IMG/VR virus record: IMGVR_UViG_2534681736_000023
Origin: a virus
Taxonomy: Duplodnaviria; Heunggongvirae; Uroviricota; Caudoviricetes
Direction: 5' to 3' (one strand)
DNA length: 10,082 nt
Under the pieces are notes generated by a model. That model was not told the DNA's origin. It saw only the letters and a list, made by a program, of their open reading frames with translations, and made no database searches. Of the stretch, positions 3,713 to 4,086 are shown one piece after another. The first letter of the stretch is position 1. Every line of letters starts with the position of its first letter. The translations under genes were made by a program, and so were the position numbers.

Positions 3713-3947
3713 CTAAAAAACGTCAACATGCAGAAAACTCGCTATATCCGGCAAAAATGGCATCGCGAATGAAGCATGCAACCGCGCCCGGACAAAATAC
3801 GGACTTCCGGAAATATGAAAAATCATCCATATCAACAGGATGCACGAAAAATGAGATTTCCGTCACTTCCGGAATTAACTTTTCCGTGGCATTCTTTATC
3901 TGTGTAGGTAAGGTCTCTTCACAATAATGACATAATCAACGCAGTTC

Positions 3948-3977
3948 ATGGGGGAAGTGATGGTCCCCCATCTTTTT
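3948..3977 (+). terminator. Rho-independent terminator (plus-strand orientation)
   Basis: An 8-bp stem ATGGGGGA (3948-3955) pairs with TCCCCCAT (3964-3971) around an 8-nt loop, followed by CTTTTTGTCTGTTATTT. No T-run follows on the opposite strand, so it is mainly a plus-strand terminator. Confidence 0.5.
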
Positions 3978-4086
3978 GTCTGTTATTTCTCCCCCCTGTA
4001 TGCCTGTATCTCATCTGCACTGCTCAGCGTTTCCAGCCCCTTACCGTGCTACACTGGCGGTTCTCACCTGACTGCCGTCGTTCTCT

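What the first reader, a model, noticed from the sequence alone, without database searches (positions are those of the whole stretch)
3713..4086. No tail-fiber assembly (tfa) gene downstream of stf
In lambda-like phages stf is followed by tfa, a chaperone needed for fiber maturation. Here the stf stop (4087) is followed by 375 bp of non-coding DNA, and the next gene (dinI-like) is on the opposite strand. Either the assembly function lies in the Stf C-terminal ~95 residues (...[24 protein letters not shown]...CVGLFQRIS), or tfa was deleted and the fiber module is defective, or a chaperone is encoded elsewhere.
Basis: partly seen in the sequence, partly recalled or inferred. Interest (0 to 1): 0.45.

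Follow-up and report, generated by a model that had tools for sequence, protein, structure and literature searches.

The report
Prophage side tail fibre missing its chaperone gene
This E. coli lambda-like prophage has an intact collagen-like side tail fibre gene, but the chaperone gene that follows every other known member of this fibre-tip family has been lost, leaving a 20-codon scar; this is ordinary prophage mosaicism, and whether the fibre still assembles is untested.

Summary
Stf (4087-6153, minus strand, 688 aa) is followed by 374 bp with no intact gene, then a convergent dinI-like gene (3464-3712).

The gap is not plain non-coding DNA. It holds:
- the last ~20 codons of a DUF4376-type tail-fibre-assembly (tfa) gene (3983-4048, minus strand);
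- a plus-strand terminator hairpin (3948-3981);
- a C-terminal YkgJ pseudogene fragment (3717-3818).

Against sister prophages that carry Stf(395 aa)+tfa(223 aa), homology runs 3401-4042 and 5630-6181. Segment 4043-5629 is therefore a swapped-in distal-fibre cassette that arrived without a chaperone gene.

The last ~86 Stf residues are a real, conserved tip domain (dN/dS 0.11), not Pfam PfC. In all 50 informative loci outside this allele and its one close E. coli relative (Citrobacter, E. coli 55989/O104:H4, even a high-GC myophage), a chaperone gene starts 7-12 nt after the fibre stop, with a co-conserved N-terminal domain.

Only this allele (36 of 5,426 complete E. coli genomes, all ≥99% identical, same junction) and one diverged E. 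coli allele lack it.

So "tfa was lost" is supported. Whether the fibre is defective, self-folding or helped in trans is unresolved; I lean towards defective. Modest interest.

The parts
4087..6153 (-). stf: collagen-like side tail fibre, 688 aa. Order of domains: PfN, Col1, Pf2, an unassigned ~165-aa globular region, Pf2, Col2, 86-aa tip.
   Evidence: ORF. Pfam phage_tail_N E=1.5e-41, Collagen E=2.8e-36, Phage_fiber_2 E=6.1e-36; no Phage_fiber_C. PHROG 366 'tail fiber protein' E=5.8e-141.
4090..4347 (-). Tip domain (last 86 residues, [13 protein letters not shown]...LPGTWRVC...CVGLFQRIS). It belongs to a sparsely populated tip family, probably the 'PfC2' of EPclC fibres.
   Evidence: No Pfam hit. 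Remote homologues at 38-47% identity in the representative search, in Citrobacter and in 47 viral contigs. dN/dS=0.106 against the L007 allele. AF2 predicts a six-strand beta domain, pLDDT 76.
4043..4086 (-). 44-nt spacer between the stf stop and the tfa scar; origin unresolved.
   Evidence: No significant match to any fetched locus. One 11/12-nt match to the SD region upstream of the L017 chaperone start is not better than shuffles (65/500).
3983..4048 (-). 3' scar of a DUF4376-type tail fibre assembly gene: ...HGKGLETLSSADEIQAYRGEK*, preceded by stop codons. Weaker similarity may extend to about 4071.
   Evidence: DNA is 92% identical to 07-4299 over 4042..3462, which there covers the last ~20 codons of a 223-aa DUF4376/Caudo_TAP protein (...KKDLESLSSADEILAYRVGWAQE*). 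PHROG 11571 positions 202-218/223, E=0.083.
3948..3981 (+). GC-rich hairpin plus T-run. It looks like an intrinsic terminator for the plus-strand (dinI) transcript. There is no T-run on the stf strand.
   Evidence: Terminator scan: 8 terminator-like sites in the 3200-4300 region against 0.9 expected from shuffles. The hairpin is conserved in B-type prophages just downstream of the tfa stop.
3717..3818 (+). YkgJ-family C-terminal remnant (pseudogene, 33 codons): [33 protein letters not shown]
   Evidence: Translation. PGAP annotates the same stretch as 'YkgJ family cysteine cluster protein, incomplete, missing N-terminus' in RM7190 and 07-4299. A longer frameshifted copy sits at the same place in E. 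coli 55989.
3464..3712 (+). dinI-like gene (82 aa), convergent with stf.
   Evidence: Pfam DinI E=1.6e-17. Annotated DinI in VT1-Sakai and in RefSeq relatives.
4043..5629 (-). Swapped-in cassette relative to B-type prophages. It encodes the distal part of Stf, from about residue 176 to the end, plus the 44-nt spacer.
   Evidence: Megablast against 07-4299 matches only window 3401-4036 (91%) and 5630-6181 (96%). blastn extends the first block to 4042.
6305..6967 (-). lom (Ail/Lom outer-membrane protein), upstream neighbour of stf.
   Evidence: Pfam Ail_Lom E=3.4e-51.
6997..10071 (-). J (tail tip / host specificity protein). The listed ORF begins at an internal GTG near the window end, so the true start probably lies beyond the window.
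   Evidence: ORF. Annotated J/gpJ in the homologous records.

Best explanation
The window is the attL-proximal end of a lambda-like prophage inserted in mlrA/yehV. Its side-tail-fibre module is a recombinant.

Shown: the distal two-thirds of stf (about 4043-5629) replaced the distal part of a 'B-type' stf together with almost all of its downstream tfa. What remains of that tfa is its last ~20 codons (3983-4048), followed by its terminator hairpin, a ykgJ remnant and dinI.

Shown: the incoming fibre ends in an 86-residue tip domain. Everywhere else this tip family is found, it is translationally coupled (7-12 nt gap) to a dedicated chaperone gene. That chaperone's N-terminal ~75-residue domain is conserved alongside the tip. 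Its C-terminal part is either DUF4376 or Caudo_TAP.

Shown: no cognate chaperone gene came with the cassette, or none survived.

Inferred: the fibre tip is orphaned, so Stf most likely trimerises or matures poorly or not at all. The phage can tolerate this because lambdoid phages adsorb through J, and side fibres are dispensable (as in laboratory lambda, from established knowledge).
For: Scar and mosaic boundaries:
- 92% identity to 07-4299 over 4042..3462 and 96% over 5630-6181, with nothing in between.
- The 07-4299 gene is a 223-aa protein with DUF4376 (E=8.5e-17), a sub-threshold Caudo_TAP match, and PHROG 136 'tail fiber assembly protein' (E=5.8e-37).

At the same yehV site, complete genomes carry the B-type with an intact DUF4376 gene. 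None carries this combination of site and fibre.

The tip family is real. Remote homologues are found and dN/dS is 0.106.

Pairing with a chaperone gene:
- 48 loci have a Tfa homologue directly after the fibre by tblastn.
- L062 and L063, from a high-GC myophage, have a divergent DUF4376 gene by inspection and Pfam.
- Start codons lie 7-12 nt after the stop (gene calls in 41, 46, 47).
- The chaperone N-domain is conserved across the DUF4376 and Caudo_TAP versions and is unrelated to the B-type Tfa N-domain (hhalign probability 13%).
- E. coli 55989 has J-lom-Stf-DUF4376-ykgJ'.

Published experiments show that DUF4376/Tfa proteins encoded just downstream of fibres are needed for functional receptor-binding proteins: V22 gp27 (PMC7289586), A5 gp9 (PMC10579305) and the CJIE1 H-fibre partner, which cites TfaMu (PMC7882524).

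No cognate-type tfa is present in any of the 36 genomes that carry this allele.

No record among 50,697 phage records has this tip.
Against: Loss of function is inferred, not shown.

- Both known alleles of this E. coli subclade (this one and L007) are separated by dS~1.5. Both lack tfa, with different downstream junctions, yet the tip has been under strong purifying selection. That pattern fits a subclade that no longer needs the chaperone.
- The 2-kb ORF is annotated intact in 34 of 36 genomes. The allele sits in prophages at several chromosomal sites and in several serotypes.
- Related collagen-like fibres with PfC tips trimerise on their own when expressed alone (PMC3368898) and work in virions without a tfa (PMC5155283).
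- The scar comes from a non-cognate (B-type) tfa. The donor cassette may therefore already have lacked a chaperone gene.
Confidence: 0.5

Rival explanations
1. Chaperone-independent tip. In this E. coli subclade (the window allele and the L007 allele) the tip domain has come to fold and trimerise without a dedicated Tfa. The flanking collagen triple helix, or general host chaperones, may help. On this reading the tfa-less layout is the functional norm for the subclade, and the B-type tfa scar is a by-product of cassette exchange.
For: - Both known alleles of the subclade lack tfa, against none of the 50 other informative loci.
- The two alleles have different junctions. L007 has a hairpin 8 nt after the stop and no tfa scar.
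- dN/dS=0.106 over dS~1.5.
- These are the shortest tips in the family, lacking two loop insertions.
- The scar is from a non-cognate tfa, and the 44-nt spacer shows no recognisable start of a cognate tfa.
- PfC tips of the same fibre family trimerise autonomously (PMC3368898).
- The allele is intact and has spread across attachment sites.
Against: - Purifying selection may date from before two independent, recent losses.
- L007 is a single draft contig with an assembly gap inside stf.
- All 36 copies of the window allele are >=99% identical, so an intact ORF says little about selection.
- The tip-chaperone pairing is conserved from enterobacterial siphophage-like prophages to a high-GC myophage, which argues for strong dependence.
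- No isolated phage carries this tip.
Confidence: 0.3
2. Trans-complementation. The fibre is matured by a chaperone encoded elsewhere, either in the same prophage outside the window or by one of the other lambdoid prophages that these STEC genomes carry.
For: Genomes that carry this allele often hold other prophages with intact DUF4376 tfa genes. For example, 2014C-3097, RM10410, RM10809-3 and JNE170426 have a B-type prophage at yehV. The DUF4376 C-terminal module is shared between chaperone types.
Against: - The fibre-specific part of these chaperones is the N-terminal domain (PMC7882524).
- The B-type N-domain is unrelated to the one that co-occurs with this tip family.
- None of the 36 genomes carries the closest cognate-type tfa at >=~85% DNA identity.
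- The Citrobacter-type N-domain gives no DNA match in any complete E. coli genome.
- Chaperone genes in this family are always tightly linked in cis.
Confidence: 0.12
3. Intramolecular (self-cleaving) chaperone. The C-terminal ~95 residues would act like the Peptidase_S74 domain of endosialidases or T5 pb1 and be removed after trimerisation.
For: Only the absence of a separate chaperone gene.
Against: - No Pfam match of any kind in the last 94 residues at E<=10.
- The domain is ~86 residues, much shorter than S74 domains (length from established knowledge).
- Homologous tips elsewhere are served by an external chaperone.
Confidence: 0.03

Closest known systems
EPcl collagen-like prophage side tail fibres of EHEC (EPclA-D; Ghosh et al. 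2012, PMC3368898), in particular EPclC/EPclC* such as EC55989_1078
   Same: Same building blocks: an N-terminal PfN domain, collagen triple-helix repeats and Pf2 repeats. Same position after J and lom at the prophage end. The 55989 fibre carries a tip of the same family as the window (47%-identity class).
   Different: The tip is not PfC (PF06820), so this is not EPclA or EPclB. Unlike the 55989-type fibre, no DUF4376 chaperone gene follows it. The architecture has two collagen blocks and two Pf2 repeats around an unassigned globular domain.
Tail fibre plus DUF4376/Caudo_TAP assembly chaperone pairs (lambda Stf/Tfa, Mu S/U, Alteromonas V22 gp26/gp27, Campylobacter CJIE1 H-fibre and its partner)
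   Same: The window's tip family follows this rule elsewhere. The chaperone gene sits immediately downstream, with a variable fibre-specific N-domain and a conserved DUF4376 or Caudo_TAP C-terminal part (PMC7882524, PMC7289586).
   Different: Here only the last ~20 codons of a non-cognate DUF4376 gene survive, and no functional chaperone ORF is present.
Laboratory lambda (PaPa), with a frameshifted stf
   Same: A lambdoid phage whose side-fibre module is compromised while J-mediated adsorption is retained (established knowledge). This shows that such a lesion is tolerated.
   Different: In lambda PaPa the lesion is a frameshift in stf and tfa is intact. Here stf is intact and tfa is gone.
B-type module of prophages at yehV and dusA and of phage 1720a-02: Stf(395 aa)+DUF4376 Tfa(223 aa)
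   Same: Backbone identical or nearly so: dinI, ykgJ', the hairpin, the 3' end of tfa, and the first ~175 codons of stf.
   Different: The distal fibre and tip are different, and the B-type has a complete tfa.

Membership tests
EPcl collagen-like prophage side tail fibre | N-terminal PfN domain (PF08400) | tested here: met
   E=1.5e-41, residues 1-134.
EPcl collagen-like prophage side tail fibre | Collagen Gly-X-Y domains (PF01391), optionally with Pf2 repeats (PF03406) | tested here: met
   Collagen E=2.8e-36 (3 stretches). Phage_fiber_2 E=6.1e-36 (2 stretches).
EPclA/EPclB subtypes | C-terminal PfC trimerisation domain (PF06820) | tested here: not met
   No PF06820 hit for the full protein at E<=1 or for the last 94 residues at E<=10. 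The VT1-Sakai H0003 control gives E=1.3e-35.
'GLFQRIS' tip family (probably PfC2 of EPclC) | Conserved motifs G-x-L-[HN]-A-V-G ... L-P-G-T-W-R ... L-[FW]-x-R-I-[SA] at the extreme C-terminus, after collagen or a fibre shaft | tested here: met
   Profile hits at E=6.9e-8 to 1.1e-5 to independent proteins. Alignment shows 17 invariant columns. 47 more distant viral-contig loci and 2 Citrobacter loci. That this family equals Ghosh's 'PfC2' is inferred from EC55989_1078 and was not checked against their figure.
'GLFQRIS' tip family (probably PfC2 of EPclC) | Cognate chaperone gene starting 7-12 nt downstream, with the conserved N-domain of alignment A5 | tested here: not met
   Present in 50 of 50 informative other loci. 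Absent from the window, from the 35 complete genomes that cover the same junction in full, and from L007.
Tail fibre assembly protein (Caudo_TAP PF02413 / DUF4376 PF14301) | Intact ORF of ~130-230 aa downstream of the fibre gene | tested here: not met
   Only a 21-codon C-terminal fragment preceded by stop codons (3983-4048). No tblastn hit at E<=1e-3.
Intramolecular chaperone / Peptidase_S74 | S74 domain with a catalytic Ser-Lys dyad at the fibre C-terminus | tested here: not met
Functional (virion-incorporated) side tail fibre | Trimeric fibre present on induced particles | not testable with these tools
   Needs expression or induction experiments. No isolated phage record carries this tip.

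The most novel reading that the evidence does not exclude
The window allele and its one diverged E. coli relative (L007) could be a natural sub-lineage of a normally chaperone-dependent fibre-tip family that has become able to fold and trimerise without its Tfa. That would give a matched pair (about 47% identical tips, with and without a chaperone) for working out what makes a tail-fibre tip chaperone-dependent.
Probability: 0.3. Interest if true: 0.5.

Novelty: new member of a known kind. Interest (0 to 1): 0.28.

Why it matters
As it stands, this is a routine example of tail-fibre cassette shuffling and decay at the end of a lambdoid prophage in Shiga-toxin-type E. coli. It explains why no tfa is annotated.

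It has some practical value:
- It flags a fibre that should not be assumed functional when predicting host range or reusing receptor-binding proteins.
- It defines a tip family and its cognate chaperone N-domain, a pairing I did not find described in the papers I read. That helps when annotating the tip domain, which has no Pfam hit, and the 'DUF4376 domain-containing protein' entries.
- If the fibre does turn out to assemble alone, the with-chaperone and without-chaperone pair would be a convenient system for studying chaperone dependence and for engineering chaperone-free receptor-binding proteins.

Tried and rejected
- Rfam scan of the whole window at E<=1: nothing, so no known sRNA in the gap.
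- Pfam on the four longest gap ORFs (40-62 aa): nothing meaningful.
- tblastn of the tip against 50,697 phage records: no match.
- A 'distant' blastn of the tip DNA against complete E. coli genomes found only the same 36 near-identical copies.
- Word-indexed protein search with the tip found only near-identical E. coli fragments and the L007 allele. The exhaustive HMMER search was needed to reach remote homologues.
- Origin of the 44-nt spacer 4043-4086: no significant similarity to cognate tfa starts. One 11/12-nt match to the L017 SD region is no better than shuffles.
- Test of whether the B-type Tfa N-domain is related to the cognate N-domain: no.
- A self-cleaving S74-type autochaperone was considered and rejected.
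- The STEC299 locus has Stf, cognate tfa, 510 nt, then B-type tfa. I looked at it as a possible intermediate, but the 510 nt shows no recognisable B-type stf tip, so the route remains conjecture.

Full report
**Setting.** The window is the left end of a lambda-like prophage inserted in mlrA/yehV of E. coli.
- The left part holds btsR/yehT (548-1282, minus strand), btsS/yehU (1264-2964, minus strand) and a truncated mlrA start.
- Then come a dinI-like gene (3464-3712, plus strand), the gap in question, stf (4087-6153, minus strand), lom (6305-6967, minus strand) and J (6997-10071, minus strand).
- The closest phage record is VT1-Sakai, which sits at the same attachment site.

**Observation.**
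- A 374-bp gap (3713-4086) separates the convergent stf and dinI genes.
- No intact tfa is present. The four longest gap ORFs (40-62 aa) have no meaningful Pfam match.
- tblastn with two kinds of Tfa finds nothing in the window at E<=1e-3.
- Rfam finds no RNA family.

**The gap is not empty.** It contains three recognisable features.
1. Plus strand 3717-3818 encodes the last 33 residues of a YkgJ-family protein ([33 protein letters not shown]). PGAP annotates this stretch as an N-terminally truncated pseudogene in the 99%-identical RM7190 locus and in 07-4299.
2. A GC-rich hairpin followed by CTTTTTGT lies at 3948-3981 on the plus strand. It is a plausible terminator for the dinI transcript.
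3. On the minus strand, 3983-4048 reads HGKGLETLSSADEIQAYRGEK*, preceded by stop codons.
   - This is the 3' end of a tail-fibre-assembly gene. In strain 07-4299, phage 1720a-02 and many prophages at yehV, the same DNA continues into a 223-aa protein ending ...KKDLESLSSADEILAYRVGWAQE* (92% identity over window 4042..3462).
   - That protein has a DUF4376 domain (E=8.5e-17), a sub-threshold Caudo_TAP match, and an N-terminal match to PHROG 136 'tail fiber assembly protein' (E=5.8e-37).

**Mosaic structure.** I call the 07-4299 arrangement the B-type module. It runs dinI - ykgJ' - hairpin - tfa(223 aa) - stf(395 aa).
- Against this module, the window is homologous only at 3401-4042 and 5630-6181.
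- The first ~175 Stf residues are shared.
- Segment 4043-5629 is therefore a replacement cassette. It carries the distal fibre and its tip plus 44 nt of unknown origin, and it took the place of the B-type distal fibre and all but ~20 codons of its tfa.
- At the yehV site, complete genomes have the B-type with an intact tfa. None has the window's combination of site and fibre.
- The same stf-scar junction occurs at >=99% identity in 35 of 5,426 complete genomes, with one further genome matching the tip only partially. These prophages sit at other sites, for example next to yecD in RM7190 and next to ompW in 2013C-3181. That points to a single origin followed by spread.

**The fibre.** Stf is a member of the collagen-like EPcl prophage fibres described by Ghosh et al. 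2012 (PMC3368898).
- It has PfN, two collagen blocks and two Pf2 repeats.
- It lacks the PfC domain (PF06820) that defines EPclA and EPclB.
- This matters for the tfa question. PfC is an autonomous trimerisation domain, and recombinant EPclA trimerises when expressed alone.
- PfC-tipped fibres work in virions without a tfa. In Sp5, ORF67 is the tail fibre and no tfa-like gene is among the essential genes (PMC5155283). In VT1-Sakai the fibre is followed directly by ykgJ and dinI on the other strand.
- So a tfa-less layout is the norm for PfC fibres, but the window's tip is not PfC.

**The tip domain.** The last ~86 residues have no Pfam hit and no match in 50,697 phage records. They are nonetheless a genuine domain.
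- An exhaustive profile search found homologues at the C-termini of other PfN-coiled-coil-collagen fibres, and one small stand-alone protein.
- The alignment shows conserved motifs GxL[HN]AVG ... LPGTWR ... L[FW]xRI[SA].
- Collection scans added two Citrobacter loci and 47 more distant viral-contig loci.
- A second E. coli allele (L007, 77% amino-acid identity) gives dN/dS=0.106 at dS~1.5. That indicates strong purifying selection in this reading frame.

**Pairing with a chaperone.** Outside the window and L007 alleles, every locus with enough downstream sequence has a gene starting 7-12 nt after the fibre stop.
- 48 loci are detected by tblastn.
- L062 and L063, from a high-GC P2-like myophage, have a divergent DUF4376 protein.
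- Three loci (L009, L041, L045) are too short to judge.
- The N-terminal ~75 residues of these proteins are conserved across all types (alignment A5). The C-terminal part is DUF4376 in most and Caudo_TAP in the L017 type.
- This fits the published model in which the variable N-domain binds the fibre tip and the conserved C-domain drives assembly (PMC7882524). It also fits experiments showing that DUF4376 proteins encoded just downstream of fibres are required for functional receptor-binding proteins (PMC7289586, PMC10579305, PMC7882524).
- E. coli itself has intact pairs. 55 complete genomes, including 55989 (EC55989_1078, an EPclC* fibre in Ghosh's table) and O104:H4, carry J-lom-Stf-DUF4376-ykgJ'.
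- None of those 55 genomes is among the 36 that carry the window allele.
- The B-type Tfa N-domain is unrelated to the cognate N-domain.
- The Citrobacter-type N-domain gives no DNA match in any complete E. coli genome.

**Interpretation.**
- Shown: the tfa gene is absent because of a cassette replacement or deletion that left a scar, and the tip belongs to a family otherwise always linked to a dedicated chaperone.
- Inferred: the fibre is orphaned and probably matures poorly. The phage tolerates this because lambdoid phages adsorb through J (established knowledge from lambda PaPa).
- I give this reading 0.5.
- The main rival, at 0.3, is that this E. coli subclade has become chaperone-independent. 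Both of its known alleles lack tfa with different junctions, the tip is the shortest in the family, selection on it is strong, and the scar is from a non-cognate tfa, so the donor cassette may never have had one.
- Against that rival, all 36 copies are nearly identical, which means the event is recent and an intact ORF is uninformative. L007 is also a single draft contig.
- Trans-complementation gets 0.12 and a self-cleaving autochaperone 0.03. Both have little support.

**Verdict.** The functional consequence is open. This is ordinary prophage mosaicism, with a comparative by-product: a defined tip family and its cognate chaperone N-domain. Interest is modest.

Noticed in passing
window 3398-3448: A good sigma-70-like promoter (TTGACA, 18 nt, AAAAAT) is followed by a canonical LexA box, CTGTATATAACCACAG (3433-3448), just upstream of dinI. 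VT1-Sakai annotates the same promoter and SOS box. The prophage-end dinI is therefore probably SOS-induced and terminated at the 3948-3981 hairpin.
   Followed up: partly
window 3172-3239: This is the truncated start of mlrA/yehV (MALYTIGEVALLCDINPVTLRA*), ending at the phage attachment site as annotated in VT1-Sakai. The prophage occupies the classic Stx1-phage site. No complete E. coli genome in the collection has this site combined with this fibre allele.
   Followed up: partly
window 4372-4804: The second collagen block of stf is built of near-identical ~108-nt (36-residue) tandem units. Relatives differ by whole units (652 aa in P0007 and RM7190 against 688 aa here), so fibre length is polymorphic through in-frame repeat gain and loss.
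   Followed up: partly
window 4950-5450 (Stf residues ~236-400): A ~165-residue non-collagen region lies between the two Pf2 repeats. It has no Pfam family and matches only PHROGs of unknown function (21834) or generic tail-fibre PHROGs. It may be a second globular, possibly receptor-binding, domain in mid-fibre.
   Followed up: no
L069 (E. coli STEC299) 2388-5288: This prophage end carries Stf, the cognate-type tfa, a 510-nt gap and then a second, B-type tfa with no fibre of its own. It looks like a stacked product of cassette insertion and a possible intermediate towards the window's arrangement.
   Followed up: partly
L017, L018, L024 (IMG/VR contigs) 3304-3725: The chaperones here have the same fibre-specific N-domain as the others, but it is fused to a lambda-Tfa-like Caudo_TAP C-terminus (136 aa) instead of DUF4376. 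The two assembly modules therefore appear interchangeable behind one tip-recognition domain.
   Followed up: partly
L001 (VT1-Sakai) 5080-5469; Sp5 ORF68 in PMC5155283: Small ORFs made up almost entirely of a PfC domain lie at or after the end of PfC-type fibre genes. Mondal et al. suggest they are a reservoir for tip variation. There is no equivalent in this window.
   Followed up: no
window 3757-3927 (+): Two overlapping small plus-strand ORFs (56 and 43 aa) lie between the ykgJ remnant and the hairpin. Some RefSeq genomes annotate a 'hypothetical protein' in this region. There are no family hits, so they may simply be the 3' UTR of dinI.
   Followed up: no
L007 6199-6240: In the diverged E. 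coli allele, a perfect 9-bp-stem hairpin (GAGGGGCTG TTAAAT CAGCCCCTC) starts about 18 nt after the stf stop. It is followed by a ykgJ remnant and then host ydfJ. There is no tfa and no tfa scar.
   Followed up: partly
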